Translations under genes and position numbers: made by a program
Shown: piece after piece, positions 17,160 through 62,667 of the stretch
Layout of the letters: each line of letters opens with the position of its first letter
Position numbering within the stretch: the first letter of the stretch is position 1
IMG/VR virus record: IMGVR_UViG_3300010352_000625
Span: 96,001 to 160,000 of that record
DNA: 64,000 nt
Source of the DNA: a virus
Taxonomy: Duplodnaviria > Caudoviricetes
Strand: one strand, 5' to 3'
The notes under the pieces: generated by a model
Database searches by the model: none
Told to the model about the DNA's origin: nothing
What the model saw: the letters and a program-made list of their open reading frames with translations, nothing else

Positions 17160-17323
17160 GTGAACTAATTACAGCCTAAAGGATGTAATCTTCCTGCTTC
17201 AACGGCTACAAGGTTCATAGTCTCCACAGGCTTGAATTCCCTAGGTTCCCTAGGTATTTGATTTTTAATTATTTTAGTCATTCATATTACCACCTAAAGG
17301 CAGTAATCTTTCTGTCTATTGTA
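17160..17323 (-). mobile_element. Non-autonomous IS200/IS605-family mini-element, copy A (164 bp)
   Basis: Subterminal hairpins at both ends; right end ...TAGTTCAC; left flank TTAC; tnpB-3'-like core GGGAATTCAAGCCTGTGGAG. Confidence 0.8.
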
Positions 17324-33879: not shown

Positions 33880-33905
33880 AGATAATCAAATCCTTATTAT
33901 AAATT

Positions 33906-35476
33906 TTAAATATTTTTTTCGTTTAAATCATATATCCCAGTGTTTTTTTCCATAGCTGTGATTGCATTATTGATAGTCTGTTTTTTATAAGGATCCCCTA
34001 AACTATTAAAAATCATATATTCAACATCTTCAACAACAAGTTCATGCAAAGCTCTATGCAATTCAGTATTAATATCTCTTAATTTATAATTCCAATTTAT
34101 ATCTACGTTAGTCTCAGTTTTATTATTTTCATGATAATATTCTGTAAATGAAAACCACTTATCTTTAATTAAATGACCAATACGTATTATACTATTATTT
34201 TCTATTTCACATCGAACAAAAGTGTTTTCTAATTCTTCCCAACTATTCAACTCTAAGGTTTCAAGTAATTTTATGATGGCACCTAAACCAACAGCTGTGG
34301 GAACTCTTTTCTTTTTATCTTTATCATATTTATCTAAAGCATAAGTACCATACCCACATCCAGTACCATCAAATGTTATATCAAGAAGAAAGGTGAAAAA
34401 TCCAAAATCTTTTGTTCCTAACATTGTCTTTCTTATTTTACCATTTAGTATACTCATATTTTATTATTCCTCATTTATTAATTCATTTATTTTTACTCTA
34501 CCATGCCAAACAATTTCGACAGTATCAAATATAGTTTCTTCTGTTTCATCTTCTTTAAATTCAAACTGATATATAATATCTTTATCATTATTCTGTTTTA
34601 AATATTTAAATACATCAATAGCTAATCTATCCCAACAATCTTCTTTTTCTTTATTAATTGATATCATATCAGATATATTTTTCTTACAATCTTTAGTATA
34701 TCTTGTAGCTATATTATATTGTTTAAGATTTTTTTTAATCATTCGATATCCCAATTCATTTCCTTCATGGTTTCTATTATTTTATCAGCATCTAAGTATA
34801 CATCTGCATAATCTGTTCTTTTTTTATCTGTAACATCTTCTACATACATTTCAGTATCAGCATAAGAATTTTCATGCTCAATATCAAACTCATCAGATTG
34901 ATACAACTGATAAACTATTTCTTTAATATCATCATCTGTAAGTGGTTCTTTAAGATTATCAGGAACTTCAACTATTACCATATGTGAAAATGTTTGTACT
35001 ATTTCTACTTCTTTCTTCATACTCATTATCTCTCCTTACTTATTATGTTTTCTTTCTTCTCTTAGTTGTTCTCTCCAAATTTTACGTTTGCTACGTGGTA
35101 AAGGTTCTATATTAGGATTATAATCTTTCGTTGTTTTAGGATAATTTCTAACTTTAGTTTTATTTACGGATGTTCCTAAATATTCATCTATTCCCATTCC
35201 ATTGAATTCTGTAAAAAATTCATTATATACTCCTGCTGTGTTAGGTAGTTCAAGATGTTCTGGTATTGTATTAGGGTCTGGCATATTATTTTATTATTCT
35301 CCTTCTTTTTTATTCTCCTCTAATAATTCATCTAATATAGGTTTTTTGTGCTTACACCAATCTATATAAACAATAATAAAACCAATAACTATAAATATAT
35401 AGAATGAGATTTTAACTAGTGCTACTTTCAAACAACACTTTATCCTTACCAATGATTTTAGGTCTACCATCTTCAA
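33906..35476 (-). CDS. Cluster of small hypothetical proteins (33906-34457, 34464-34754, 34739-35026, 35036-35284, 35294-35476)
   Basis: Co-oriented, tightly packed ORFs. Confidence 0.5.
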
Positions 35477-35577
35477 TATTAGCCATAACTATCACTCCTT
35501 ACTTTTAATCCAAATTACAAATGCCAAGAAGCTGAACGTAATCGCAAGCATTAACACTATTGTTATATCTTCACTGC

Positions 35578-36279
35578 TCATTCCTCATCCTCCGGCAGAT
35601 TGAGCGAACGCCATGCTATTATTTCCTTATTGATGCGAGTTTGAGCTATATCAAAATACCCTTCGTCAAGTTCCATCCCTATGAATTGCCTATTAGTTCT
35701 AATACAAGCAACTCCCGTAGTTCCTGACCCCATACATGGGTCTAAAACTACGCCACCCTCGCCAGTGCAATCTGTTATCAATTCCTTAAACAGAAGAACA
35801 TTCTTTTCAGTTGGGTGTAATTTACTTTTTCCACACGGATATTTGAAAACTGTATTTTTGCAGTGTGGATTAAATATTTTATAGCCTGCTTTCTTAAACC
35901 AGACTGCCGTTTCTACCCCACTTAAATAGACATGTTGCCCGTTCATTGGAGATGGATTACTCTTTTGCCATACCAAAAGACGCACTGTGCCTTTCTGTGT
36001 TTCAAAGAACTGATAGATAGGACTAATCTGCCCTTTGCCACAAAATATAACTATGCACCCTTTAGATATTCGCAAACATTCAGTCAAGAAGTTATCTAGA
36101 TTAAATGTTAGAACGTCCGCATTGCCTTTATCTAGTTGTCTTATCCCATTAGAACTTCGATTAACTTCGTTGTATGGTATATCAGTGAGTATCATATCAA
36201 CAGAAGCATTCTCTATGTCCCTCATAAGAGACATGCAATCTCCTTGGATTAACTCAACTTGTTTGTCGAGTTCTGTCAT
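35578..36279 (-). CDS. Beta-class N4/N6 DNA methyltransferase
   Basis: TDIPY, HPTEK, LDPCMGSGTT. Confidence 0.9.
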   Translation of the reverse strand: MTELDKQVELIQGDCMSLMRDIENASVDMILTDIPYNEVNRSSNGIRQLDKGNADVLTFNLDNFLTECLRISKGCIVIFCGKGQISPIYQFFETQKGTVRLLVWQKSNPSPMNGQHVYLSGVETAVWFKKAGYKIFNPHCKNTVFKYPCGKSKLHPTEKNVLLFKELITDCTGEGGVVLDPCMGSGTTGVACIRTNRQFIGMELDEGYFDIAQTRINKEIIAWRSLNLPEDEE

Positions 36280-36295
36280 TCCGAGACCTCCTTCA

Positions 36296-36544
36296 CTATC
36301 TCCACGCCCTGTTATAAGCCTCTACTGCCTTTTCCGGGGTCTCGCCGAATCCACAAATGCCCTCTTGTATACTCTCGCCATATAAGGCACACCACATATT
36401 GCCATCTTTATAAATTTTAGGCTTGAAATTAGTGCTTGGCAGAAGTTGTTGCTCACATACAGTGTCGTAATAAATTCTCATGTGATGTTGTTCTATGTTA
36501 AATCGCTCGTTCCAGTATGCTTCTTCTGTGTTTATTCCGCTCAT
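36296..36544 (-). CDS. Hypothetical phage protein
   Basis: 82 aa; DGNMWCAL.GE..QEG..GFG.TP..A motif. Confidence 0.55.
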   Translation of the reverse strand: MSGINTEEAYWNERFNIEQHHMRIYYDTVCEQQLLPSTNFKPKIYKDGNMWCALYGESIQEGICGFGETPEKAVEAYNRAWR

Positions 36545-36663
36545 TCCGCTTTCTCCTCCTCTAACTCCTTAATTCTTTGTCTTAGTTCGCTATCTAAAAG
36601 ATCAGCCATTGTTAGCCTCCTTTGTATCCGCGCCGTTAATGTTGCAGATGTTTAGTAAGTGTT

Positions 36664-37416
36664 TCATTCGCCCACTTCCTTTTCGGCAAGGGCTTTCTGT
36701 ATGCGCTCGTTGGCTATATCGCAGTATTGCGCATCCAATTCAAAACCTATGTAATTGCGGTTGGTGTTGATGCAGGCGATTGCGGTTGTGCCGGAACCCA
36801 TACAGTTGTCGAGGACTGTCTCGTTTTCGTTGGTATATGTACAGATAAGGTATTCCATTAACTCAACGGGTTTCTGCGTCGGATGTCCACCCTTGAATCT
36901 CTTTTGCGGTATCTCAATAATTGATTTAGGGTAATACCATTCTGAATAATGAGGTTTATATGTAAACTTGCCATAATTTGTAGAGTCTCCACCTGTTGAC
37001 TTTAAAACTCTTTTCCCTTTAACCATTTTAGGGTTATATGTTGGTTGCTTTTGATAAAACACTAATATATCTTCGTGGCTTCTAAGTGGTTGCTTTTTAG
37101 CGTTTAAAAACCCCGTAACCTGACTTTTGCTCCAAACAAGCGAATACTTAAATAGCTTTCTGTTGCTTTGAATCAAATCTGTTGTAAACGGTTGCGTAGC
37201 AGTAAGTACAATCACGCCGTTTTCTTTTATAATCCTCTCATAATGCTTCCACAACTTTTCAAACGGTATAACGCAATCCCATTTATTCCTTGCAGTTACA
37301 CCATAGGGCAAATCACATAAAATCATATCGACAGACTTATCCGGTATCCTTTTCATTCCCACTAAGCAATCCTCATTGTAAATCTTATTTATCAATAATT
37401 CGTCAAAAGTCATCAC
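36664..37416 (-). CDS. Beta-class N4/N6 DNA methyltransferase
   Basis: CDLPYG, HPTQKP, LDNCMGSGTT. Confidence 0.9.
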   Translation of the reverse strand: MMTFDELLINKIYNEDCLVGMKRIPDKSVDMILCDLPYGVTARNKWDCVIPFEKLWKHYERIIKENGVIVLTATQPFTTDLIQSNRKLFKYSLVWSKSQVTGFLNAKKQPLRSHEDILVFYQKQPTYNPKMVKGKRVLKSTGGDSTNYGKFTYKPHYSEWYYPKSIIEIPQKRFKGGHPTQKPVELMEYLICTYTNENETVLDNCMGSGTTAIACINTNRNYIGFELDAQYCDIANERIQKALAEKEVGE

Positions 37417-42731: not shown

Positions 42732-43178
42732 ATATTAAAATTTTAAATTTTAAATATTATAATTATCACAATGATGCTTGGTTATATCCATCACAATCTT
42801 TGACACGAAAACTCTTTTATCTTCTTCTTGTATCTTTTGTTTCGCAAACTTTATAGCATTATCTATGTCAGAAAAGGTCTTATATTGAACTTCATCATTC
42901 TTATTTAGAATTGTTGCTATGTACATTATAATATCATCCTCTCGATTAAATTAGTTGATTATTCATAATTTAGTGTTTCATTCACTGTATATATTATATC
43001 ATATTTTGTTTTAGATGTCAATAGTTATTTAATTCAAAACTCAAAAAAAAATAACATAAATTATTACTAAAATAAAAACCCTACACACTAGCTAGATATG
43101 TAGGGGTATAGTCCCATATTTCTCAATATGAGGGGCTTAACTAAATATTAGTACTAAATATTAGTTAAGGGATTAATT

Positions 43179-44813
43179 TTAAATATTACCTTTACTAAAC
43201 TCAGCGATAATATTAGGAACACTAGCATCAAAACCAGCTATATCTAGCATACCCTTATCTTCTGGGTCAGCAATACTAAAATTGGTTGCCTCTGTAGCAC
43301 AAACTATCAACTTAGTATCCAGCTTCATCTTTTCTCTGTAATTCTTTAGCCCGGCAAATGGGTGAGTTCTTCCACACCAAGTGTCATTGTCAGTCCATAC
43401 GTTGAATACGTCAACTTCTATATTATTCTTCAAGGCCCAGTTAATAGCCGCTGAACAATCTGTACCACCCCAATTACTTCTTACAACCTTCTTACAAACT
43501 GAATCTAGTTTATCTGTCTTTGTTATACCTAGGTCAACAACTTCATCACAAAAACCAACTACATGTACATTAGGTTCAGTCTTTAGTAGTATCATAGACA
43601 TTGCCGCAGTTACTTCACAACTTCTAAGATTAGTGTTATTTATTGTTGAACTCATTGAACCAGATACATCAAGAGCTACCAGATATCTCTTGTTAGTTGG
43701 TTCAACATTATCAAACGCAAGATAAAAAGCATCTTCCAAAGCTGATTCAATTGCTGGTACTGGTGTCCAACTATTACTACCTCTAAATCCTTCACCAGCT
43801 GAATAAGTCTTCAATGCTATTAATATATTAATAGGATGTATTCTTGACTTGCGTATAACTTCCTTATTGCTCAAAGTCTTACATACCATCATAGTACCCT
43901 TGCTTAGTGGTGCCAAATAACCAATCATAGTCATTTTAGCTAGATTTCTAACTAGTGCTGTTATAGGCATAGTACAGTTTTCACCATCATTAGACATCAA
44001 AGCTTCCCATATATCAACTTCATTAAGCAACTGAGTTGGTACAGTTTCTCTAGGCATATTATATTTCTTTATCAGCTTAACAGCGTTCTTAACTGTATCA
44101 CCAGACATTTCTGACAGATACTTTTCAAAATTCATACCAAGATTAAACTGGTCTATTGCTGAATTAGTATCATCCAATACAGGAAGTACTTCATCATAAC
44201 CCTTTACAATCTTGTTGAATATATAAGCCATATCATTATTCGTAGCTACTGGATGTGAAAGAGCTATGGTATCCTTATGTGTCCAACCTTCACGATTCTT
44301 GTACTTAATTACCTGATATACCAACTGACTAGTATTCTTATCCAAATACCAATTAGCTATACACTTTCTAAGACCTCTACCCCAACCACGAAACTTCTGT
44401 ACGTCTTCTACAAACTGAAACAGATGTGTAGCAGTACGACATACCTTATTAAGATTTCTAAAAGCATAAGCCTTAACATCAGCATTACCAAAGGCACTAG
44501 CCAATGCCATCACAAATATTGCTGAGTCATTCTTAGGTGCTCTACCTGCATCACTTATCTTAACAGTTTCATATACTACTCTACAACCATCCTGTTCAAT
44601 AAGCTTCAATACATTTTCAGCATTTTCCTTAGACAACACTGAACCCTTAACATAATAAGAATTCTTTTCTGAACCCAATATTAGGAATCTATTTAGTCTA
44701 TCCCAATCACTAATTGTAAATACATATCCACCAGCGTTATTCTTAACCTGATTCTTACCAAATACTGATTCTGTTTGTGGAACATTTGTGATTATATCTG
44801 AATACTTTGTCAT
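43179..44813 (-). CDS. Ro60 / TROVE-vWA RNA-binding protein (Rsr ortholog)
   Basis: QVKNNAGGYVF, RFLILGS, GWGRGLR, KY.NR.GW.HKD, MP.TALVRNL, HPI, vWA DVSGSM, TDNDT, D..MLDIAGFD. Confidence 0.93.
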   Translation of the reverse strand: MTKYSDIITNVPQTESVFGKNQVKNNAGGYVFTISDWDRLNRFLILGSEKNSYYVKGSVLSKENAENVLKLIEQDGCRVVYETVKISDAGRAPKNDSAIFVMALASAFGNADVKAYAFRNLNKVCRTATHLFQFVEDVQKFRGWGRGLRKCIANWYLDKNTSQLVYQVIKYKNREGWTHKDTIALSHPVATNNDMAYIFNKIVKGYDEVLPVLDDTNSAIDQFNLGMNFEKYLSEMSGDTVKNAVKLIKKYNMPRETVPTQLLNEVDIWEALMSNDGENCTMPITALVRNLAKMTMIGYLAPLSKGTMMVCKTLSNKEVIRKSRIHPINILIALKTYSAGEGFRGSNSWTPVPAIESALEDAFYLAFDNVEPTNKRYLVALDVSGSMSSTINNTNLRSCEVTAAMSMILLKTEPNVHVVGFCDEVVDLGITKTDKLDSVCKKVVRSNWGGTDCSAAINWALKNNIEVDVFNVWTDNDTWCGRTHPFAGLKNYREKMKLDTKLIVCATEATNFSIADPEDKGMLDIAGFDASVPNIIAEFSKGNI

Positions 44814-44854
44814 TTCTTATTACCATCCTTTATTTTTGATTTATTTTTAGATAT

Positions 44855-44897
44855 AAAAAAACACCTTATAGCTATAAAACTAATCAGGTGTTTTTTT
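44855..44897 (-). terminator. Terminator-like hairpin between the RNA cluster and the Ro60 start
   Basis: Minus strand AAAAAACACCTGATTAG...CTATAAGGTGTTTTTT. Confidence 0.55.
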
Positions 44898-44920
44898 ATC
44901 TTGTTATATATTTAAATAAT

Positions 44921-45054
44921 ATTTTGGATAATTATTGCAGATTGGCTTAAAAATCATTCGATTTTTTATTGCTCAATTACAATTTGTGGAACAAGGTTAC
45001 ATATATTCATTCTGTATGTTAGAATTAGATAACCAACCTGCTCCGACCCAAAAT
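44921..45054 (-). ncRNA. Y-RNA-like RNA 1
   Basis: AUUUUGGGU-C-GG..GCAGGUUGG-UUAUC ... CCAAUCUGC..UU-AUCCAAAAU: terminal stem with bulged C, adjacent to Ro60. Confidence 0.75.
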
Positions 45055-45064
45055 GTATTATGAT

Positions 45065-45155
45065 ATATATTAGATAAAAAAGCGAAAAACAATTTATAAA
45101 TTAAATTGTATTATTAATCATCCTATGATAATTGTTCTTCAGCGACCCAATATAT
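45065..45155 (-). ncRNA. Y-RNA-like RNA 2
   Basis: AUAUAUUGGGU-C-G..GAAGAACAA-UUAUC ... UUGUUUUUC..UU-AUCUAAUAUAU. Confidence 0.75.
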
Positions 45156-45217
45156 TAAGTTTTCAATGTTACATATATTAACTTATATTAATTTATAAAT
45201 TTTAAACATTATTTTAT

Positions 45218-45318
45218 GTGAACTAATTACAGTCTAAAGACTGTAATCTTCCTGATTCATCGACTACAGATTTCGCATAGTCTCCACAGGCTTGAATTCC
45301 CTAGGTATTTGATTTTAT
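45218..45318 (-). mobile_element. IS200/IS605 mini-element copy B (internally deleted)
   Basis: Same right end and core as copy A; left flank TTAC. Confidence 0.75.
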
Positions 45319-45362
45319 GTAACTTAAAATCTAATAAATAGATTTTATTATACAAAAATTAA

Positions 45363-45442
45363 GTTAGATAATTGTTGAAAAACAGATGTTTTCTGTTTAT
45401 AATTTATAAGATTATATGATAACTGTTTTTCTTCGACCCAAC
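45363..45442 (-). ncRNA. Y-RNA-like RNA 3
   Basis: GUUGGGU-C-GAA-GAAAAACAG-UUAUC ... CUGUUUUUC..UU-AUCUAAC. Confidence 0.75.
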
Positions 45443-45459
45443 ATATTTATTAAAATTGG

Positions 45460-45670
45460 CTGGGAAACATTTAAGTTTTACGGGGAAAAACTATCCCCAA
45501 CCCAAATTTACTAAGTTAATGATTGGCGTTATATAGAATGGTAACATAGATAAGACTATATAACATTTGATAGCATAGTACCCGTAAATTCCTGAAGCCA
45601 ACCAATTCAGTATTCCTATTGGTATTGGTGTAAACGATATTATGTCTATGCCCATAATAGGATAAAAAAT
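45460..45670 (-). ncRNA. Unassigned structured RNA, copy 1 (pseudoknot module plus stem module)
   Basis: Homologous to 45788-46005 with compensatory substitutions. Confidence 0.6.
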
Positions 45671-45681
45671 ATTTAAATTAA

Positions 45682-45751
45682 TGGCAGTCGAATGAAGATT
45701 CGAACTCATTATAAATCGCACTTGATTGATAATCGATTACTACGACCCAAC
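45682..45751 (-). ncRNA. Y-RNA/tRNA hybrid (Y-type 5' end, T-arm, 3' CCA)
   Basis: UUGGGUCG-UAGUAAUCGA-UUAUC...GAGUUCGAAUCUU...UCGACUG-CCA. Confidence 0.6.
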
Positions 45752-45787
45752 TTATATTATTAACTTATATAAATTTAAAAATTAACT

Positions 45788-46005
45788 AACTTGGGATAAC
45801 TTCAATGAAGTTTTACAATCATTCAGGCGGGGGAGCCAGACCAACCCAAGTTTTTAAAGAACGCTGACATTATATAGAATGATTCATCTAGATAAGACTA
45901 TATAACATTTGATAGTATAGTACCCATAAACTTCTGAGGTCAGCTAACCCAGTACTCTATTATAATAACGATATCATAGCTATACCTACGATAGGATGAA
46001 AAACA
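45788..46005 (-). ncRNA. Unassigned structured RNA, copy 2
   Basis: See copy 1. Confidence 0.6.
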
Positions 46006-46198
46006 TCAATAATTCAATATAGCTGAGTATAGTACACAAAGGAAATGATTTGTAAAAATAAAATGATTGAATTTTTTCGCATTACATAATAATTTACTTT
46101 TTAATTTCTTTATTAATAAAAATAATATTTGATAAGTTTAAAAATTATTTAATATATTCTCTCAGCTATATTGAATTGTCAATGTTCATAATTATAAT

Positions 46199-46282
46199 TG
46201 GTGGGAGCGAAGGGAGTCGAACCCTCAAGCCTTGCGGCGAGACATTTTAAGTGTCTTATGTATACCATTCCATCACGCTCCC
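46199..46282 (-). tRNA. tRNA-Leu(TAA)
   Basis: Cloverleaf, long variable arm, CCA. Confidence 0.9.
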
Positions 46283-46837: not shown

Positions 46838-46994
46838 GAGAGTTTTAGTTGTTCTCAGCAACAAACATATTATATCATGTTTTTACTGTTTTGTCAAGTG
46901 TTAATTTTTGTTTATTTTTAATCTTTTTTCGTTTGAGAGTTTTAGTTGTTCTCAGCAACAAACATAGTATATCATAGTTTATATAATTTGTCAA
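46838..46994 (-). repeat. Tandem duplicated promoter plus leader unit
   Basis: tgagagttttagttgttctcagcaacaaacata.tatatcat...ttgtcaag occurs at 46838 and 46934. Confidence 0.8.
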
Positions 46995-47018: not shown

Positions 47019-47792
47019 TTAATTTTTTAAACTAAATTTAATATTCTTTTTTGCTTCTTCAATTCTATTTTGTGCTATATTAAAATAATTTTCATCTAAT
47101 TCAATACCTATAAAATTTCTGTTAGTATTAACGCAAGCTACGCCAGTTGTGCCAGAACCCATACAATTATCTAAAACCAAATCTTCTTCATTGGTATAGG
47201 TCTTAATTAGATATTCCATTAGTGCTACGGGTTTTTGTGTTGGATGAATGGTACTGCCCAATTTTTCTCTATTTATATTTAATATATCACAAGGGTATCT
47301 ATATCCAGTGTCTTCATAGGGCTTAATTGACAAAATAGGAGAATTAGATGCAACCACAGATTTAAACTTGGCATTTTTTTCACTTGGTTTATTTGTTACC
47401 TTTTTACCATTATGTTTAACCATTTGCGGATTATAAGTACATTGCTTTTTATAAAACACACATATATTTTCAGTTAGTTTTCCCACTCTCTTTTTTACTT
47501 GCATAAAATTAGTAGGTTTTTCTTTTACCCAATATATGTCATATTTGTAATCAGATTTATTACTTAATCTTAGTTCACTACTAAATGGCTCTGTTCCAAA
47601 AAGAATGATTGCACCTTTATCTTTAATCACTCTGTTGTATTGCTCCCATAACGGCTCAAAAGGAATTATGATATCCCATTTACATGCTGTAGTTCCGTAT
47701 GGTAAATCACATAAAATCATATCTATTGATTCATCAGAAATATCTTTCATTTTCTCTAGACAATCACCATGCATTAATCTAATCTCAGACAT
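47019..47792 (-). CDS. Beta-class N4/N6 DNA methyltransferase
   Basis: CDLPYG, HPTQKP, LDNCMGSG. Confidence 0.9.
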   Translation of the reverse strand: MSEIRLMHGDCLEKMKDISDESIDMILCDLPYGTTACKWDIIIPFEPLWEQYNRVIKDKGAIILFGTEPFSSELRLSNKSDYKYDIYWVKEKPTNFMQVKKRVGKLTENICVFYKKQCTYNPQMVKHNGKKVTNKPSEKNAKFKSVVASNSPILSIKPYEDTGYRYPCDILNINREKLGSTIHPTQKPVALMEYLIKTYTNEEDLVLDNCMGSGTTGVACVNTNRNFIGIELDENYFNIAQNRIEEAKKNIKFSLKN

Positions 47793-47800
47793 TACTTACC

Positions 47801-48553
47801 TCACTTAAATTTAATATTCTTTTTTGCTTCTTCAATTCTATCTTTAGCTATATTAAAATACTTTTCATCTAATTCAATACCGATAAAATTTCTGTTAGTA
47901 TTAACACAAGCTACCCCTGTACTACCTGAACCCATTGTAAAATCAAGAACTAGTTCATTTTCGTTAGTATAGATTTTTATTAGATATTCCATTAGTGTCA
48001 CTGGTTTTTGTGTTGGATGTAAATGACCCTTTCCACTTGGGTTTGAAAAGTTCAACAGACTATCTTGCCAACCAGTATGTGTGGTTTTATGTTCTGTTTT
48101 CCCTGCAACTCCTAGTCTGTGTTGTTCATCATTTCTTAATCTTGCTCTACCAGATTTTATTGGAGTATCAAGTTCTATAAGATTTTGTTGATTAAAAGTT
48201 GGTTGTTTTTCATAGAAAACAAGAATTTCCTCGTGTTTTCTCATGGGCATTTTTTTAGCGTTTTGAAAACCGCTTGATTTTGTTTTTATCCAAGAATAAT
48301 CATACTTAAACATCTTAATATTACTCATAATCAAAGCACTTGTAAAAGGCTGTGAACCGAATAAAACTATAGCCCCGTTAGGTTTAATAACTCTTTTCAA
48401 CTGCTCCCACATCGACTCAAAAGGAATAACACTATCCCATTTACACGCAGTTGTGCCATAAGGTGGGTCTGTTATAATGGCGTCAATTGATACATCAGGG
48501 ATATCTTTCATCTTATCAAGACAATCACCTTGTATCAATCTAACCTCAGACAT
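47801..48553 (-). CDS. Beta-class N4/N6 DNA methyltransferase (tandem paralog)
   Basis: TDPPYG, HPTQKP, LDFTMGSG. Confidence 0.9.
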   Translation of the reverse strand: MSEVRLIQGDCLDKMKDIPDVSIDAIITDPPYGTTACKWDSVIPFESMWEQLKRVIKPNGAIVLFGSQPFTSALIMSNIKMFKYDYSWIKTKSSGFQNAKKMPMRKHEEILVFYEKQPTFNQQNLIELDTPIKSGRARLRNDEQHRLGVAGKTEHKTTHTGWQDSLLNFSNPSGKGHLHPTQKPVTLMEYLIKIYTNENELVLDFTMGSGSTGVACVNTNRNFIGIELDEKYFNIAKDRIEEAKKNIKFK

Positions 48554-48584
48554 TACTTATCTACCTCACTATTAAATTTAATAT

Positions 48585-48659
48585 TGGAGCACCTTCCCCG
48601 AATTGAACGGGGATCTAATCCTTACCATGGATTTGTAATAACCTTTATACGAAAGATGC
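48585..48659 (-). tRNA. tRNA-Thr(GGT)
   Basis: Anticodon loop ATGGTAA; CCA. Confidence 0.8.
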
Positions 48660-48663
48660 TTAT

Positions 48664-48738
48664 CGGATCTGCATAGCTGATTCGAACAGCTGACTAATAC
48701 TTACGAGGTATTTGTTTTTCCAGTTAAACTAATGCAGA
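48664..48738 (-). tRNA. tRNA-Thr(CGT)
   Basis: Loop CTCGTAA; ends CCG rather than CCA. Confidence 0.7.
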
Positions 48739-48750
48739 ACATTAACTTAA

Positions 48751-48824
48751 TGGAGCCACTTGGAGGAATCAAACCCCCATCCGAGGTGTACAAAACCCCT
48801 ATAATGTCATTATACGAAAGTGGC
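48751..48824 (-). tRNA. tRNA-Thr(TGT)
   Basis: Loop TTTGTAC; CCA. Confidence 0.8.
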
Positions 48825-48835
48825 AAAAATTTTAA

Positions 48836-48911
48836 TGGCACCAGAGGCTGGATTCAAACCAACATTTCTCAAATTTGGAGTTTGATAGTTTTTCATTTAA
48901 CTTACTCTGGC
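48836..48911 (-). tRNA. tRNA-Trp(CCA)
   Basis: Loop CTCCAAA; CCA. Confidence 0.75.
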
Positions 48912-48929
48912 ACATAATTTGAATACATT

Positions 48930-49004
48930 TGGAGAGGATAACCAGAATCGAACTGGCACTCATAATTTGGAAGAATATGCGACTACCGATTATCTTATAT
49001 CCTC
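48930..49004 (-). tRNA. tRNA-Gly(TCC)
   Basis: Loop CTTCCAA; imperfect anticodon stem. Confidence 0.7.
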
Positions 49005-49346
49005 ATCATAAACAATTCTATCTAAATCTATTTTTTCTCTATGATTTTTTAGCATATCTCGGTATAATTCTTGTTGTCTTTCATCTAAATCTAACATTTT
49101 GTGATTTAAAAAATAAAATGTATTATTCTCATTCATTTAATATTTCACTCTCTTTTATTTAACCCAATTTTAAACACTTACGCCTATATATTCTATAGTG
49201 CTAAAAATAACCATTATGATACGCAAAGCGTTTATCTTTAATATTTACCTAGGATAGTTATTTTATCATTGTACGCCAGTATTTAGGAATCGAACCTCAA
49301 TAAGTGCATTGCTCTATAAAAATACATAGGCGTAAATATTTAATTA

Positions 49347-49420
49347 TGGAGCGGGTAGAGAGAATCAAACTCTCATCTACTGACAGGCAATCAGTCATAA
49401 TATCATTATACTATACCCGC
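49347..49420 (-). tRNA. tRNA-Gly(GCC)
   Basis: Loop TTGCCTG; CCA. Confidence 0.8.
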
Positions 49421-49427
49421 ATAAAAT

Positions 49428-49504
49428 TGGGAGCGGTGGTCAGACTTGAACTGACAATCAAATGGGTATGAGCCATTTCGCATTAACCATTAGCGTACAC
49501 CGCA
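49428..49504 (-). tRNA. tRNA with CAT anticodon (Met/fMet/Ile2)
   Basis: Loop CTCATAC; 1:72 mismatch. Confidence 0.75.
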
Positions 49505-49807
49505 ATAATTAATTATAATTTATATACATTAATATTACTTTCTTAATTATAAAATGATATTAACGCATAAAAAAATGTTGAAAATATAAAAATAAAAATT
49601 GCAATTATAAATTTATACCATATTAAAACGGTTGGTTCAAATAACAATAAAATACATGTTATAAATAATACACTAGATATTATAATAAATGCTAGCATTA
49701 AAAGTATTTTACCCCATGATATAAATATATCTTTCCATAATTTAAAAAACTTAATTATATCATTCATTAAAATTTATTTCTCCTTAGTTGAATGAATTAT
49801 TAAAAAA

Positions 49808-49998
49808 TGGGGTGAAGTGAACTAATTACAGTCTAAAGGCTGTAATCTTCCTGATTCATCGACTACAGATTTCATAGTCTCCACAGGCTTGAATTCCCTA
49901 GGTTCCCTAGGTATCTGTCTTAATATTAGTAAGGGAATTAAACCCTCGCCGTTCTGGTTCACAGCCAGACTGTACTTGTCAATTATACGAACAACACC
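49808..49998 (-). pseudogene. tRNA-His(GTG) interrupted in the 3' acceptor strand by mini-element C
   Basis: Removing 49817-49928 restores G-1...CCCTTAC|TTCAC-C-CCA; loop CTGTGAA. Confidence 0.8.
49817..49928 (-). mobile_element. IS200/IS605 mini-element copy C
   Basis: Inserted 3' of TTAC inside tRNA-His. Confidence 0.85.
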
Positions 49999-50009
49999 AT
50001 GTATTAAAT

Positions 50010-50083
50010 TGGCAGAGCTATGGGGAATCAAACCCCAGCCTAGTGATAGAAAGTCACTTGTGCTATCATTACACAATAGCTCC
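50010..50083 (-). tRNA. tRNA-Glu(TTC)
   Basis: Loop CTTTCTA; CCA. Confidence 0.8.
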
Positions 50084-51057
50084 ATAATAAATTTTTATTC
50101 TTCTATACTAAGTTTATAACGATATTGTTCTATATCTATAGATTCATTCAAAACAAACGAATCAGCTTTATTATTATCAAAACTTTTAAAATCAATAAAC
50201 ATATCCATATTCATTATATATACCTCAATATTTATTCTTCTATAACTCTAATTACATTAGTTAAATATATATTTTTCCTACAGGTTATTCTTTTGGATCA
50301 GTTAATGAAAAATCATCATTATCTATAAAATGATCGATAACCATTTTACATCTTTTTAAATCATTCACAACACTTTCTATCTCTTTGTATTCATAAGATG
50401 AGTTATCAACTCTAGGTTTTAAATCAATATCAAGAAAATGTCTTAAGCAATCTAATTGATTAACATACTCGCTAAGAACCTTTTTAACAAACTCAATTTG
50501 GCCTTCACTATCATATTCAGCTGAACTTAATATCACATCTAAGTCATTTGGTCCAATACTCATGTTATCATCTCTTTATTTTAAACAAGTTCCACAATAC
50601 TCACTTCCAAATGGCAATTTCACCATATTTCCATTTTCACGCAAAACTTTACCATTAACTTTAACACATACTGCTAACATTTCGTTATACCTCCCTTAAA
50701 TTCCCCATAGAATATTTGTTAGTTATATTCATATTTATATTATATTTTTCTGAATTATAAGGTAATTCTGTAACTAACTGATTATTCTCAATATTATCAA
50801 TAACAAATTCAACATCTTTAATATCGTTTATATTTTTAATATAATCACTTAATGATTCAATATCAGCAAATATATCATCCGAATATTCAGATTCATTATC
50901 AGATATATAACTCAATGTATCCGATAAACTATTAATTATACTAGTAGCTTCTGTGATATTACTTAAACTATTAATATGAGATTTAATTATATCTAACTGT
51001 TTCTGGCTTATCAAATATACTTTATCCATTCTTTCGTTCCTTCTTTCAACATATTAA

Positions 51058-51129
51058 TGGAGGGAAGTGAGAGAATTTAACTCTCCTTGTACCCTTTGCA
51101 GGGGTATTACATCAACAGATGAACTTCCC
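51058..51129 (-). tRNA. tRNA-Cys(GCA)
   Basis: Loop CTGCAAA; CCA. Confidence 0.75.
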
Positions 51130-51268
51130 ATTAATACTAGTATATCATATTATATATAATTTGTCAAGTGTTAATTCTAACTTGTGCTTAGGTTGAAGCA
51201 CAAGTTAGAAATATCAATTTTGTGACATCACGAAATTAACGTTAAGAGATATCATAAAGGTGTATCAA

Positions 51269-51895
51269 TTATTTCATATCAAATAAATAATAACCCTTTG
51301 CTTTAAAATATACTGCTGAAGCATAATTAGAAACTATAGGAGCATATACACAAGAAAAAATAAAATTCTTATTTTTAATTTTAGAATATATTTCTTCAAA
51401 TTCTTTATATGTTACATGTACAGCATTACCAATACTAAATTCTTCATCCTTTGATACAACATAAATCTCCTTACCATCACCATAAAGAATTGATTCTTGA
51501 TTATACTTATCTCTTAATTCAATCCCTAACTGTTTAAATTGTTCATTGTCTAAACTTTTACCATCCCAAGTTTTGTTAGGAATAAAATAAGAAATTTCTA
51601 CAACTTTAAGTTCATCTGGAGTACCAGCGTTTTCTGTCCAATGCCCTTCTAATTGAATAGCACCTAGATTATTTTCTTTAATATCAGATAGTAATTGTTT
51701 GTTTCTGATAATATTCTTATTTTTAGAATATTCTCCTCTAAATGCTGTTATTATAATAAAACTTATTCCACTTTGTACATGACTTATAATTCTAGATAAA
51801 CCAGCACTAGCTTCAATAACTTTAAAATTGTTACTATCAGATATGTTTGGTGAAGTTTGTTCAATGATACTATCAAATTTTTTAAATATATTCAT
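51269..51895 (-). CDS. DUF3293-like protein, paralog of 52956-53831
   Basis: LSRI..H...IITAFR...N..RN..L..DI...G.W.E...E.SY...YNQESIL. Confidence 0.5.
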   Translation of the reverse strand: MNIFKKFDSIIEQTSPNISDSNNFKVIEASAGLSRIISHVQSGISFIIITAFRGEYSKNKNIIRNKQLLSDIKENNLGAIQLEGHWTENAGTPDELKVVEISYFIPNKTWDGKSLDNEQFKQLGIELRDKYNQESILYGDGKEIYVVSKDEEFSIGNAVHVTYKEFEEIYSKIKNKNFIFSCVYAPIVSNYASAVYFKAKGYYLFDMK

Positions 51896-52166
51896 TTTAA
51901 AATCTCCTTATCTCTATTATATAATGTAAAAATCTTTTATTACTTTTATTAATTTCAATATTCAATATCTTATTATTATTTAATCGATTAATCATATCTT
52001 TGTATTCTTCAGTATCTTCGACAACTATCCTATGTCTACCATTAGTCATAGTATATTTAATACCATTATATTCTGGTGTATTAACAATTACAGATAAATT
52101 ATCTATGTTATCTAAAAATAATTCATAAAAATCTTTAAATAGTATAATATTATTCATCATTATTAT

Positions 52167-52598
52167 TTACTTTAATATAAAAAACCCAGCATCTTTTTTC
52201 CACTCAGGCCAGGAATCTATTTCATTTTGTATTTCTTTAAATCTACGTTCAGCTTCTTCTATTTCTTTTTTTCGTTCTTCTTTTATTTTATTAACTTTGT
52301 ATAAATATTGTATTCTATCTAATTCATCATTAGTACTAAAAGCAACTGTCCATTCATTTTCTTCATCTGTAGGTAATTCATCAAATTCATATTTAGGAGT
52401 TTCTATTTTATTATATTTAATAGTTGTGTTAACTATCTCTCTTACTCTACCGAGACCATCACAAAAATCACACTTAATAAAACGATAATCAACAAAACCA
52501 CTAAATGTTGATTCAGCTTTTTCCATTTTTAAATATCCTCTACCCTTACATTTAGGGCAAATTATAATTTCATCTGTGTTTTTGATTTTTTCATCCAT
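52167..52598 (-). CDS. DnaJ-type zinc-finger protein
   Basis: CPKCKGRG and CDFCDGLG repeats. Confidence 0.65.
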   Translation of the reverse strand: MDEKIKNTDEIIICPKCKGRGYLKMEKAESTFSGFVDYRFIKCDFCDGLGRVREIVNTTIKYNKIETPKYEFDELPTDEENEWTVAFSTNDELDRIQYLYKVNKIKEERKKEIEEAERRFKEIQNEIDSWPEWKKDAGFFILK

Positions 52599-52734
52599 TT
52601 CTCATTCTTCCTTATCTTCTACATATATAAATTTATGATATATAAATTTATGAATTAAATACACACAAAAACAATAAAAAAATCTTGAATAAAAAGTATC
52701 ATCAATATTAAAATAATTAAATATGGGTGCATAT

Positions 52735-52898
52735 GTGAACTAATTACAGTCTAAAGACTGTAATCTTCCTGATTCATCAACTACAAATTTCATAGTCTCC
52801 ACAGGCTTGAATTCCCTAGGTTCCCTAGGTATTTGATTTTTAATTATTTTTGACATTCATATTACCACCTAAAGACAGTAATCTTTCTGTCTATTTTT
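52735..52898 (-). mobile_element. IS200/IS605 mini-element copy D (164 bp) interrupting a 37-aa membrane ORF (52655-52932)
   Basis: Both ends present; left flank TTAC; excision restores the reading frame. Confidence 0.85.
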
Positions 52899-52955
52899 GT
52901 AAAATAACAAACCAATCTAAAAATATTTTCATATAATTTTATCTCCTAATTTAAA

Positions 52956-53831
52956 TTAATCATCTAATCTATACATTCCAGTTAAATTTTTAAACCATTT
53001 TTCAGATTTATCATAGTATATATTATAATTACTTTCAATTGTTTTATTTTTAAATAATGTATCGATAAATTCTGATTTATCTTTATTATTCATCACAAAA
53101 GCACTGTTTGATTTTTTATTTTTCTGACTATAACCAAATCCATAATTATCTTCATCAGCTATCTTTTTATATGCTACATATTTATCATGCACATTTTTAA
53201 TATTATCAGGAGTGCTAAAATGAATCTGTATAAAAGTATCAGCTAGACTTACATTAGAATCACCATCATTTATATATAATTCAAATTTTACACTACCATC
53301 AGTTGTTTTTTCTACAGCTTTACCAACAATTACTGCCATTTGATTATATTTAATACACCACTCAAAAGCTAATTTTTTAAATTCATCATAATTCATTATT
53401 TTATTGCCATGTCTGTTATAACCAAGTATCATAAAACTTATTTCTTCTGAAGCTGGTTCATAACCTATATCATTCTGTTTCTTATCTGACCAACTACCAG
53501 CTATTTTAACAAAAGATAAATCATTATTAATAATATCAACGACTAATCTTTTTCTCTGCAACTCATTCTGATTTCTGGTATTCTCACTTCGTTCAGCACT
53601 AATAAACATAACAGGTACACCAGAATAAATATGTTCAGCAATTCTAGACATATTAGCAGATAACAAAGATTTTTTAGCTATATAAATATTATCATCTTTA
53701 GTATCAGCAGTTATATTGTTAATAATAGTAAATCTAGAGTTATTAGCTAAATCGTCATTAAGTGATTTCAACTCTTTATATATATTTGCTGTTGCTATAG
53801 TAACATTTAAATTTTTAATGATATCACTCAT
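52956..53831 (-). CDS. Hypothetical protein, paralog of 51269-51895
   Basis: MSRIAEH...FISAER...N...L..DI...G.W...EISF...YNQ.AV. Confidence 0.55.
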   Translation of the reverse strand: MSDIIKNLNVTIATANIYKELKSLNDDLANNSRFTIINNITADTKDDNIYIAKKSLLSANMSRIAEHIYSGVPVMFISAERSENTRNQNELQRKRLVVDIINNDLSFVKIAGSWSDKKQNDIGYEPASEEISFMILGYNRHGNKIMNYDEFKKLAFEWCIKYNQMAVIVGKAVEKTTDGSVKFELYINDGDSNVSLADTFIQIHFSTPDNIKNVHDKYVAYKKIADEDNYGFGYSQKNKKSNSAFVMNNKDKSEFIDTLFKNKTIESNYNIYYDKSEKWFKNLTGMYRLDD

Positions 53832-53859
53832 TGAACAATCAACTCTCTATTTAAATTAT

Positions 53860-53946
53860 TGGTGGGCGTGACAGGACTTGAACCTGCAAGACCTTTCGGT
53901 CAGTAGCTTCTAAGACTACCGTGTATTCCAGTTCCACCACACACCC
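53860..53946 (-). tRNA. tRNA-Leu(TAG)
   Basis: Long variable arm; loop CTTAGAA; CCA. Confidence 0.88.
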
Positions 53947-53952
53947 ACATCA

Positions 53953-54474
53953 TTATTTCTTTTCCCAAAAATTAATTATATCATCATAAGCTTCAATCAT
54001 ATGTTCCCACATAATACCATTATTAGGGTCTGTCTGAATAAATCTACATGGAAAAAATTCGATAATATTACTAGGAGTATCATCAAATATAATAAAATCT
54101 GAATATTTTTCCCCATATTTATCCATGTAATCTTTTATTTCATTACCACGTTCCATATAATTTTTAGATTCATTGATATCATTAGTCTTCCAAGGATTAG
54201 CAAATTTACCTCTAAATCCTGAATTAGCAAAAGCACTATTAACCCAGTGATATGCTGTCATATCAGTTTCTTTCACAAAATTTTTCCAACTTGATGTAAT
54301 TATAAATTCAACATCATACTCATCATGTATCTTATTAAAAAAATCTATTGCAACAGGGTCAAATCTAGCCCACATTTTATAACTCGCATTATGAGCAAAA
54401 TGTACTCTCCAACTTGTCAGCACACCATCAATATCAACAAAGATAGCATATTTCTTTTTATATTCTTTATCCAT
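53953..54474 (-). CDS. HAD phosphatase, 'Swiss Army Knife' RNA-repair type
   Basis: FVDIDGVL, ITSSW, RG.EI, IFDD, QTD...G. Confidence 0.75.
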   Translation of the reverse strand: MDKEYKKKYAIFVDIDGVLTSWRVHFAHNASYKMWARFDPVAIDFFNKIHDEYDVEFIITSSWKNFVKETDMTAYHWVNSAFANSGFRGKFANPWKTNDINESKNYMERGNEIKDYMDKYGEKYSDFIIFDDTPSNIIEFFPCRFIQTDPNNGIMWEHMIEAYDDIINFWEKK

Positions 54475-54790
54475 TTCGTTTTCATTCCTTCATATTATAA
54501 TATTATTTATATTTTATTATTAATCATAACACTTCAAATAAGGAATGTCTTCATTTACATGTTCTATATCATAATCTGGCATTGGAAGCATTTCAGCTAC
54601 TATTTCACATAATATTAAATCACATTCTTTAGGATTATATACATTATCTGTACTTCCATACTCACTAATATCTTCATTAATTCCATTTATTATTTCTTCA
54701 ACAAATTCTAATGCTGAATTTTTATCATTAAAATAGTCATTAATACCCATATCATAGCTATAAACAAAATATTTACTCATAAAAATAGCC

Positions 54791-55834: not shown

Positions 55835-56036
55835 TTTCTTAACTTCTCCTTTTTCCCAATAGCTTGGCTCCAGACCAGACGCATTTGCCTTTATGCTACA
55901 TTCCGATATTTACAAATTAAAAAATATGTTAGATGAAAAGCATATATTGAATTTTCTTCAAAGAGATAATCAATATATAACGCCCCAACATCTTTTATAA
56001 TACTATTATATCACAACTTACTAATGTTGTCAAGTA

Positions 56037-56417
56037 TCAAATTTTATTTCTAAGTATCGTAACTATATCTTCAGTTTTCATTTTATTTTGTGCTACACTC
56101 ATTCCTATATTTACTAATTCGTCTGTTTCAAATTTAACATTATAGTTATTAATTTTAAGTAATACCAACATTATATGTATACCAATTCTTTTGTTACCAT
56201 CAGTGAAAGGATGATTAGTAATAAAAGAATAACACGCTCTAGCTATTTTTTCAATATCACTTTTGTATATTTCTTCATTGAAAGCACCAGCATAAGGCGA
56301 AAAATAAGCTGTCCAAAAAGACATGTTATCTCTAACTTTACCGCTGAACCCACCCGTTTTAGCAGTAATTACTTTATTAAGATTAACAACTTGTTCTTGT
56401 GTTAAATATTTCATCAC
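56037..56417 (-). CDS. Fic/Doc-family protein
   Basis: HPFTDGNKR motif. Confidence 0.88.
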   Translation of the reverse strand: MMKYLTQEQVVNLNKVITAKTGGFSGKVRDNMSFWTAYFSPYAGAFNEEIYKSDIEKIARACYSFITNHPFTDGNKRIGIHIMLVLLKINNYNVKFETDELVNIGMSVAQNKMKTEDIVTILRNKI

Positions 56418-56476
56418 TATTCTCCCAATATAGTATAAGCTTCTATATTATCATCCTTGAGTTTCTAGTCTTTTGT

Positions 56477-62615: not shown

Positions 62616-62667
62616 AAATATTATATCACATATTTTATAACTTGTCAAGTATCAATTTTTTATATAA

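What the first reader, a model, noticed from the sequence alone, without database searches (positions are those of the whole stretch)
43179..46282. Phage Ro60 gene with its own array of Y-RNA-like and other structured RNAs
Seen: a full-length TROVE/vWA gene sits downstream of ~1.4 kb with no credible ORF. The motif UUGGGUCG-N(9-11)-UUAUC occurs four times (5' ends near 45050, 45150, 45441, 45750). Three copies fold into a terminal stem with a single bulged C, an internal loop and a second 9-11 bp stem whose sequence differs yet always pairs (GCAGGUUGG/CCAAUCUGC, GAAGAACAAUU/AAUUGUUUUUC, GAAAAACAG/CUGUUUUUC), capped by variable loops. Known: Ro60 binds the bulged-C stem of Y RNAs, bacterial Y RNA genes lie beside rsr, and the second Y RNA module recruits effectors such as PNPase. 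Inference: this is a modular phage RNP system, one Ro60 with 4 or more interchangeable RNA adaptors, embedded among tRNA and RNA-repair genes and possibly countering host RNA-cleaving defences. The diversity of RNA types in one phage operon looks unusual.
Basis: partly seen in the sequence, partly recalled or inferred. Interest (0 to 1): 0.9.

Follow-up and report, generated by a model that had tools for sequence, protein, structure and literature searches.

The report
Phage Ro60 gene with Y-RNA genes
An uncultured 207-kb phage carries a textbook Ro60 RNA-binding ring protein and, just upstream on the same strand, several small "Y RNA" partner genes; this pairing is already known from bacteria and other phages, so the locus is a clear new example, not a new kind of system.

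Summary
A full-length Ro60 gene (43179-44813, minus strand) follows 1,385 nt without a credible ORF. The motif occurs exactly four times, only here in the 207-kb genome.

A covariance model built only from other phages' Ro60 loci recognises three of the four copies as Y-RNA-like: units D, B and C (E 3e-8 to 1e-4).

The fourth copy (45750) is the 5' remnant of a tRNA-mimic Y RNA. That RNA is intact in a close relative (L090).

The "other structured RNAs" are not Ro60 parts:
- 45218-45318 is an inserted IS200/IS605-type mini-element carrying a TnpB guide scaffold, absent in relatives.
- The two ~190-nt repeats are a separate double-pseudoknotted RNA, which another relative keeps although it lacks Ro60.

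Y-RNA arrays are the rule. All 121 model hits in 80 phage loci lie on the Ro60 strand; 39 loci have two to six, and phages Cali and Beuffert have three and five. Ro60 with Y RNAs in phages is published (Chen 2014; Thermus phage phiLo 2025), and this scan has noted such arrays on many other genomes.

Verdict: a new member of a known kind. The function in infection is inferred, not shown.

The parts
43179..44813 (-). Ro60 orthologue, 544 aa (TROVE ring plus vWA/MIDAS domain). It is the only TROVE gene in the genome.
   Evidence: Pfam. PDB sequence search: E 4.6e-122 to human Ro60 and 2.5e-108 to D. radiodurans Rsr. PHROG 850. Single copy.
44853..44897 (-). Terminator-like hairpin with a U tract, between the last Y RNA and the Ro60 ribosome-binding site. 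It is conserved in L090.
   Evidence: Inverted repeat I1, MFE, L090 sequence. It is not called by the simple terminator scan because of its loop size.
44922..45053 (-). Y-RNA-like unit D, 132 nt. It has a bulged-C terminal helix, a second stem, UUAUC, and a branched module of two hairpins.
   Evidence: R2: 44.1 bits, E 3.2e-8. Rfam nematode sbRNA family RF01656: 28.5 bits, E 0.0028, below gathering. Fold z -3.8. Compensatory change in the inner hairpin versus L090.
45068..45152 (-). Y-RNA-like unit C, 85 nt. Its terminal helix is identical to that of the tRNA-mimic unit of relatives L090 and L092, but the interior is different and shorter.
   Evidence: R2: 28.8 bits, E 1.3e-4. Fold. Three-way alignment.
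45218..45318 (-). Left-truncated copy of a repeated IS200/IS605-type mini-element carrying a TnpB guide-RNA scaffold. It is an insertion after TTAC and is not part of the Ro60 system.
   Evidence: Rfam RAGATH-18: 32.1 bits, E 0.001. About 95 nt nearly identical to copies at 17160-17323, 49817-49928 and 52735-52898. Absent (empty site) in L090 and L092. RAGATH-18 is a TnpB guide scaffold (PMC11061315).
45362..45443 (-). Y-RNA-like unit B, 82 nt. It is the only unit with an exact GNCGAAG motif.
   Evidence: R2: 43.7 bits, E 4.2e-8. R1: 37.3 bits. Fold z -1.9. Conserved in L090 at 2710-2791.
45517..45664 (-). R-B, the diverged second copy of a double-pseudoknotted RNA core. It is not Ro60-linked.
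   Evidence: Repeat D1. Across four sequences, 32 pairs are 100% paired and 6 show compensatory changes on both sides. No homologue in 80 other Ro60 loci.
45677..45752 (-). Unit A, the 5' remnant of a tRNA-mimic (YrlA-type) Y RNA. It keeps the handle 5' strand, UUAUC, a T-arm-like hairpin and part of the acceptor-like stem. It lacks the D-arm, the 3' strand of the second stem and the 3' handle strand.
   Evidence: 84.5% identical to L090:2895-2961. Alignment. R2 only 10.4 bits. Fold z -0.8.
45789..45998 (-). R-A, the double-pseudoknotted RNA core (45858-45998) plus its 3' hairpin domain. It is 93% identical to the single copy in relatives.
   Evidence: In L091 this RNA is followed directly by a terminator and the ligase gene.
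46002..46186 (-). 26-bp long-range inverted repeat enclosing 133 AT-rich nt. Its function is unknown.
   Evidence: I2. The arms are conserved and the interior differs in L090.
46199..46282 (-). tRNA-Leu(UAA), heading the non-coding array.
   Evidence: ARAGORN. Rfam tRNA 53.5 bits.
46869..46897 (-). Perfect extended -10 promoter, the nearest consensus promoter upstream of the tRNA-Leu, RNA array and Ro60 stretch.
   Evidence: Pattern search: 10 perfect sites in the window, all on the minus strand, 0.34 expected.
55927..55990 (-). Y-RNA-like unit E, a stand-alone fifth gene 11 kb upstream on the same strand. Its handle has a G.A mismatch beside the bulged C, and a U tract follows the terminal helix.
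   Evidence: R1 30.4 bits and R2 29.8 bits, E 5e-5 to 8e-5. Fold z -2.4. Sequence.
56005..56033 (-). Perfect promoter (12 of 12 hexamer matches, TG extension) ending about 14 nt before unit E.

Best explanation
This is an ordinary Ro60/Y-RNA ribonucleoprotein locus carried by a large AT-rich phage. The parts are:
- one canonical Ro60 protein;
- three intact Y RNA genes directly upstream (units B, C, D);
- one more Y RNA gene with its own consensus promoter 11 kb upstream (unit E);
- one truncated tRNA-mimic Y RNA (unit A).

Shown here: the protein's identity, the RNA fold with its conserved handle, and its conservation beside Ro60 genes of other phages.

Inferred from the characterised homologues:
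- The array is probably transcribed with tRNA-Leu from the promoter at 46897-46869 and cut into small RNAs.
- Each RNA binds the Ro60 ring through the handle: the GGGU-C-G strand paired to UAUCC, with a bulged C.
- The variable interior gates the ring or tethers it to a partner such as host PNPase. In that way the phage would redirect decay or repair of structured and damaged RNA during infection.

The mobile-element copy and the two R RNAs interleaved with the array are unrelated passengers.
For: Protein: Pfam TROVE plus vWA_Ro60; full-length match to human, Xenopus and Deinococcus Ro60 structures with the MIDAS motif kept.

RNAs: models R1 and R2 were built only from other phages' loci. They score units D, B, E and C at 44.1, 43.7, 29.8 and 28.8 bits, and nothing else in 64 kb scores above 12 bits.

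Conservation:
- All 121 hits at E<=0.01 in 80 phage Ro60 loci lie on the Ro60 strand, mostly within about 2.4 kb upstream or about 1 kb downstream.
- Handle pair 8-65 is C-G in GC-rich phages and U-A here.
- The family reaches the gathering score of the nematode Y-RNA-homologue family RF01656 in L074 and 28.5 bits here.
- Close relatives L090 and L092 keep units B and D with compensatory changes.

Expression signals: a perfect promoter lies in front of unit E and another upstream of the array.

Literature:
- YrlA-type RNAs lie within 4 kb and on the same strand as Ro60 in 254 bacteria and 22 phages, with processing from one precursor in M. smegmatis (PMC4201824).
- Phage phiLo Ro60 binds two upstream Y-like RNAs and forms complexes with host PNPase (PMC12135203).
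Against: - There are no expression or binding data; the phage is uncultured.
- Rfam Y_RNA and YrlA (RF02553) give no match in the array or the genome.
- Only unit B has the exact GNCGAAG motif. Unit E has a mismatch in the handle.
- No intact tRNA-mimic Y RNA is present, although Chen 2014 found at least one per species.
- A terminator-like hairpin separates the array from the Ro60 start, so co-transcription of RNA and protein is uncertain.
- My regex pre-selection of training sequences required pairing, so the covariation statistics are partly circular. The strand and position bias is not.
- Fold z-scores of units B and C are modest (-1.9 and -1.4).
Confidence: 0.85

Rival explanations
1. The RNAs are Y RNAs by descent, but the set is not a designed panel of interchangeable adaptors. 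Units B, C and D would be redundant paralogues in an accessory cassette that is being shuffled and eroded by duplication, truncation, module loss and transposon insertion, with interiors that are largely neutral filler.
For: - Unit A is truncated.
- Unit C looks like a handle whose tRNA-like interior was replaced by a short AU-rich hairpin.
- An IS mini-element sits inside the array.
- The R and Y segment is duplicated here but single in L090.
- Relative L091 lacks the whole cassette.
- The interiors of B and C are AU-rich with weak fold scores.
Against: - Units B and D are kept at about 89-91% identity in L090 and L092, with compensatory changes in unit D's inner hairpin.
- Across phages, arrays of distinct classes recur: 40 of 84 distinct regex-found units are <=100 nt without a T-loop motif, 14 are longer units without one, and 30 (28 of them longer) carry a T-loop motif, some also with a D-arm or GCGAAAGC motif.
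Confidence: 0.25
2. The handle-bearing RNAs act mainly without Ro60, for example as tRNA-like decoys or sponges for host nucleases, or as processing or termination signals of the tRNA operon. Their proximity to Ro60 would then be incidental.
For: - Unit E stands alone 11 kb from Ro60, with its own promoter and a U tract.
- The array follows a tRNA gene.
- The terminal helix followed by U residues resembles a terminator in units B and E.
Against: - Co-orientation with and adjacency to Ro60 genes in 55 of 80 unrelated phage loci, with no hit on the other strand.
- The handle matches the Ro60-contacted motif of eukaryotic Y and sbRNAs (PMC4201824).
- The only relative seen without Ro60 (L091) has neither Ro60 nor Y units between its R RNA and its ligase gene, though that contig covers only 1.9 kb.
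Confidence: 0.07

Closest known systems
Bacterial Rsr (Ro60) with YrlA/YrlB Y RNAs (Salmonella Typhimurium, Mycobacterium smegmatis; also 22 phages) - Chen et al. 2014, PMC4201824
   Same: A canonical Ro60 gene with several small RNA genes upstream on the same strand. The RNAs share a GNCGAA(N)G-type motif in a 5'/3' terminal helix. More than one Y RNA per locus, and tRNA genes nearby.
   Different: No RNA here matches the Rfam YrlA model RF02553. The only tRNA-mimic member is truncated. The intact members are short, YrlB-like forms with AU-rich interiors. The handle reads GGGUCG/UAUCC rather than GGGCCG/UGCCC.
Thermus phage phiLo Ro60 with Yrl1 and Yrl2 (PMC12135203)
   Same: A phage-encoded Ro60 with Y-like RNAs immediately upstream. 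It is the experimental precedent for binding and for complexes with host PNPase.
   Different: The phiLo protein is a very distant relative of this one (E 1.3e-4 versus 1e-121 to human Ro60). phiLo has two RNAs; here there are four intact ones plus a remnant.
Metazoan Ro60-Y RNA particles and nematode stem-bulge RNAs (Rfam RF00019, RF01656)
   Same: A bulged-C helix formed by the RNA ends, a second stem, and a UUAUC motif at the start of the loop. The protein is about as similar to human Ro60 as bacterial Rsr is.
   Different: RF00019 gives no hit, and RF01656 stays below its gathering score in the window (28.5 versus 38 bits). There is no La-type oligo-U biology here. The genes are transcribed from bacterial-type promoters.
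Deinococcus radiodurans Rsr-Yrn1-PNPase machine (RYPER)
   Same: It is the likely working model: the Y RNA tethers the Ro60 ring to an exoribonuclease for decay of structured RNA.
   Different: No PNPase-binding module can be recognised in these RNAs, and no such complex was tested.
TnpB guide RNAs of IS200/IS605-IS607 elements (RAGATH-18-derived reRNA, PMC11061315)
   Same: Explains the RAGATH-18-like hairpin at 45249-45290 and the following hairpin that ends in TAGTTCAC.
   Different: It is a left-truncated, protein-less copy that is unrelated to Ro60 function.

Membership tests
Ro60 / Rsr protein | TROVE (HEAT-repeat ring) domain followed by a vWA domain with a MIDAS motif, about 500-550 aa | tested here: met
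   Pfam TROVE 4.9e-41 and vWA_Ro60 1.9e-63. Residues 19-540 align to human Ro60 at 4.6e-122, with DVSGS aligned to DVSAS.
Y RNA (functional class) | 5' and 3' ends pair into a helix with a bulged C next to a conserved GG(U/C)C-C-G strand, followed by an internal loop and a second stem | tested here: met
   Met for units B, C and D. Met with one G.A mismatch for unit E. Not met for unit A, which has no 3' strand.
Y RNA (functional class) | Encoded close to Ro60 and on the same strand (within 4 kb in Chen 2014) | tested here: met
   Units A to D lie 109-939 nt upstream of the start codon, on the same strand. Unit E is on the same strand but 11 kb away. In other phages 121 of 121 hits are on the Ro60 strand.
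Y RNA (functional class) | Physically bound by Ro60 | not testable with these tools
   Needs RIP or EMSA.
Bacterial Y RNA motif GNCGAAN0-1G (Chen 2014) | Exact motif near the 5' end | tested here: inconclusive
   Exact in unit B (GUCGAAG). Unit D has GUCGGAG, unit A GUCGUAG, unit C GUCGCUGAAG and unit E GGCGUUA. The same position varies in other phages: A in 18, G in 6 and other bases in 9 of 33 sequences.
YrlA (Rfam RF02553) | tRNA-like domain with T-arm, acceptor-like stem-loop and D-arm inside the handle; score at or above the 69-bit gathering threshold | tested here: not met
   No hit in the array at E<=10. Unit A keeps only a T-arm-like hairpin. Relative L090:2900-3034 folds with a T-arm and a 7-bp UUCG-capped stem but also gives no RF02553 hit.
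Vertebrate Y_RNA (Rfam RF00019) and nematode sbRNA (RF01656) | Score at or above the gathering threshold | tested here: not met
   RF00019 gives no hit. RF01656 scores 28.5 bits against 38 for unit D. A GC-richer family member, L074:3696-3769, reaches 38.1 bits.
IS200/IS605-type mini-element with TnpB guide scaffold (for 45218-45318) | Multi-copy near-identical element, conserved right-end hairpin, insertion polymorphism | tested here: met
   Four copies aligned. RAGATH-18 scores 32.1 bits, below its 44.9-bit gathering score. The site is empty in L090 and L092 after TTAC. The left end is missing in this copy.

The most novel reading that the evidence does not exclude
Y RNA genes of this phage lineage evolve by cassette exchange inside a constant Ro60-binding handle. 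At one and the same position, with identical terminal helices and about 93% identical flanks, the window has a short AU-rich interior where relatives L090 and L092 have a full tRNA mimic. The 5' half of that mimic sits behind another handle copy in the window. If recombination at the conserved handle routinely reshuffles interiors, phage Ro60 arrays would be strain-specific adaptor repertoires under diversifying selection, for example from host RNA-targeting defences.
Probability: 0.3. Interest if true: 0.6.

Novelty: new member of a known kind. Interest (0 to 1): 0.33.

Why it matters
The locus adds a clean, canonical Ro60/Y-RNA set from an AT-rich, tRNA-rich large phage of a digester community, outside the actinophage and Thermus examples studied so far.

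The comparative work shows three things:
- Unannotated arrays of two to six Y-like RNA genes are the norm beside phage Ro60 genes, including in cultured phages such as Cali and Beuffert.
- The cassette is gained or lost among close relatives.
- RNA interiors can differ behind an unchanged handle.

These points give concrete constructs for testing what phage Ro60 particles do during infection, which is still unknown. The locus does not reveal a new kind of system.

Tried and rejected
The contigs of the 92%-identical Ro60 cluster P0001 (107 members) could therefore not be fetched.
- The search for related loci with the single protein found nothing. The alignment query worked.
- DNA similarity to cultured phages hit only the tRNA-Leu.
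- Rfam Y_RNA and YrlA gave no hits.
- A model of the R RNA found no homologue in 80 Ro60 loci. The R 27-mer is absent from IMG/VR.
- Two handle-plus-flank patterns in IMG/VR returned eight contigs with no Y-RNA model hit, so these were chance matches.
- The T4-type late promoter TATAAATA is not enriched.
- The simple promoter scan finds nothing above background inside the array.
- I considered pairing unit A's 5' strand with either CGACUGCCA (a tRNA-like acceptor with CCA) or the UUAUCC at the start of R-B. Neither is supported: the latter sequence is part of the R repeat, and fold z is -0.8.
- I considered that the R repeats carry degenerate Y handles (UUGGGUUGG). The model does not score them.
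Full report
**Setting.** The window is bases 96001-160000 of a 206,669-bp IMG/VR virus record judged complete. It is AT-rich and carries 18 tRNA genes, all on the minus strand. It also has ten perfect extended -10 promoters, all on the minus strand, against 0.34 expected.

**The observation.** ORF 43179-44813 (minus strand, 544 aa) has Pfam TROVE and vWA_Ro60 domains.
- It matches human, Xenopus and Deinococcus Ro60 chains over its whole length (E 5e-122 to 3e-108). The MIDAS-type motif and the KYKNR-GW-HKD block are kept.
- It is the only TROVE gene in the genome.
- The 1,385 nt between it and tRNA-Leu (46199-46282) hold no credible ORF.
None occurred in shuffles, and there are no other copies in the genome.

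**Independent test of the Y-RNA reading.** I therefore aligned the protein with 16 relatives and fetched 80 IMG/VR loci encoding Ro60 homologues; 396 viral stretches matched.
- A simple scan already showed the handle plus UUAUC upstream of Ro60, on its strand, in many loci and often in several copies.
- From 33 short units of other phages I built model R1. The window was not included.
- Across those 33 units the handle pair next to the bulge is C-G in 22 and U-A in 11. The window uses U-A.
- R1 found 121 matches at E<=0.01 in 55 of the 80 loci, and every one lies on the Ro60 strand. 39 loci have two to six.
- Model R2 was rebuilt from those 121 matches. Its scores in the window:

| Unit | Coordinates | Bits | E-value |
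|---|---|---|---|
| D | 44922-45053 | 44.1 | 3e-8 |
| B | 45362-45443 | 43.7 | 4e-8 |
| C | 45068-45152 | 28.8 | 1e-4 |
| E (unreported) | 55927-55990 | 29.8 | 8e-5 |

- Nothing else in 64 kb exceeds 12 bits.
- Rfam's nematode stem-bulge RNA family (homologues of Y RNAs) aligns to unit D at 28.5 bits, below gathering. It reaches its gathering score on a GC-richer family member.
- Rfam Y_RNA and YrlA do not match.
- One caution: my pre-selection of training units demanded pairing, so the covariation numbers are partly circular. The strand and position bias is not.

**Unit E.** It sits in the gap between a methylase-like ORF and a Fic gene.
- A perfect promoter (12 of 12 hexamer matches, with TG extension) ends about 14 nt before it.
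- A U run follows its terminal helix.
- Its handle has a G.A mismatch beside the bulged C.

**Unit A and the relatives.** A 22-nt pattern from the repeats recovered three metagenome contigs from close relatives.
- L090 and L092 carry the same Ro60 (about 89% DNA identity), units B and D, and one R copy. They have no mobile element.
- At the position of unit C they have a 135-nt unit with a T-arm, a 7-bp UUCG-capped stem and a D-arm-like hairpin. This is a tRNA-mimic Y RNA.
- The alignment shows identical terminal helices and about 93% identical flanks, but a different, shorter interior in the window's unit C.
- The window's unit A is 84.5% identical to the 5' half of that tRNA mimic. The similarity stops in the acceptor-like stem, where R-B begins.
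- Unit A is therefore a truncated gene. Chen et al. note that Ro60 mainly contacts the 5' strand, so residual binding is not excluded (PMC4201824).
- L091 has the R RNA followed at once by a terminator, a promoter and the DNA ligase gene. A close relative therefore lacks the whole Ro60/Y cassette.

**The other RNAs.**
- Positions 45249-45290 resemble RAGATH-18, now known as a TnpB guide scaffold (PMC11061315).
About 95 nt are nearly identical and end in the same hairpin. The site is empty in L090 and L092. This is a transposon remnant.
- The two roughly 190-nt repeats share a core with three hairpins and two loop-to-downstream pseudoknots. In four sequences all 32 pairs form, and 6 pairs have compensatory changes on both sides; slid controls give 21-48% pairing.
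- This R RNA has no Rfam match and no homologue in the 80 Ro60 loci, and it occurs without Ro60 in L091. It is real and unexplained, but it is a separate RNA.

**Context.**
- Neighbours are an ATP-dependent DNA ligase, a phosphoesterase, six DNA methylase-type genes, two SAM lyases, Fic, an SNF2 helicase and one HAD domain of the 'Swiss Army Knife' RNA-repair type 9 kb away.
- RtcB and an Rnl2-type ligase exist, but 41-46 kb away.
- The nearest consensus promoter upstream of the array is at 46897-46869. A terminator-like hairpin (44853-44897) lies between unit D and the Ro60 start.

**What is known.**
- Chen et al. 2014 reported YrlA-type RNAs within 4 kb and on the same strand as Ro60 in 254 bacteria and 22 phages. 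They found two or more Y RNAs per species and processing from one precursor.
- The Thermus phage phiLo study showed a phage Ro60 binding two upstream Y-like RNAs and forming complexes with host PNPase.
- A survey of jumbo phages lists TROVE proteins among RNA-repair adaptations.
- With R2, Mycobacterium phage Cali shows three unannotated units upstream of its Ro gene, and Streptomyces phage Beuffert shows five.
- Earlier notes of this scan describe similar arrays on many other genomes.

**Verdict.** The claims of unusual diversity, RNA-repair neighbours and a panel of 4 or more interchangeable adaptors are overstated.
- The mechanism (handle binds the Ro60 ring; interior gates or tethers, for example to PNPase) is inferred by homology.
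- I give the identity 0.85 and any specific infection role about 0.35.
- The most interesting residue is the interior swap behind an unchanged handle between close relatives.

Noticed in passing
window 45517-45664 and 45858-45998 (minus strand); L090:2457-2596; L092:2598-2737: A roughly 140-nt RNA core with three hairpins and two pseudoknots. All 32 pairs form in four sequences, and six pairs have compensatory changes on both sides. It has no Rfam match and no homologue beside other phage Ro60 genes. In relative L091 it is present without Ro60 and is followed by a terminator.
   Followed up: partly
window 46002-46027 with 46161-46186: A 26-nt inverted repeat (88% complementary) encloses 133 AT-rich nt between tRNA-Leu and R-A. 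The arms are conserved in L090, while the enclosed sequence is different and longer. It may be an RNase III-type processing helix or the ends of a small insertion.
   Followed up: no
window, ten sites, e.g. 42993-43021, 46869-46897, 56005-56033, 62620-62648 (all minus strand): Ten perfect TTGACA-N17-TATAAT promoters, all with a TG extension and all on the minus strand, against 0.34 expected by chance.
   Followed up: partly
L091:1560-1949: A close relative joins the R RNA directly to a terminator, a consensus promoter and the DNA ligase gene. The roughly 3-kb Ro60/Y-RNA cassette is therefore an insertion/deletion polymorphism in this phage group.
   Followed up: partly
L098 (Mycobacterium phage Cali) 2605-2950; L100 (Streptomyces phage Beuffert) 417-855 and 1569-1796: Three Y-RNA-like genes in Cali and five in Beuffert lie upstream of the annotated Ro genes. 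None is annotated in the GenBank records.
   Followed up: partly
G000:C1:185225-186334 and 181730-182236 (outside the window): The phage also encodes RtcB and an Rnl2-type RNA ligase, 41-46 kb from Ro60. In Salmonella these functions share one operon with rsr and the Y RNAs.
   Followed up: no
window 32089-37416 and 47019-57646: Dense set of anti-restriction-type genes around the locus: four N6/N4 DNA methylases, two Eco57I-like methylase fragments, two SAM lyases, Fic/DOC and an SNF2 helicase.
   Followed up: no
window 44922-45053 and L090:3049-3185: Unit D has a competing fold, in which a GGUUAU/GUAACC hairpin uses the UUAUC motif. A U-to-C change in L090 strengthens it, so the unit may switch between two conformations.
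   Followed up: no
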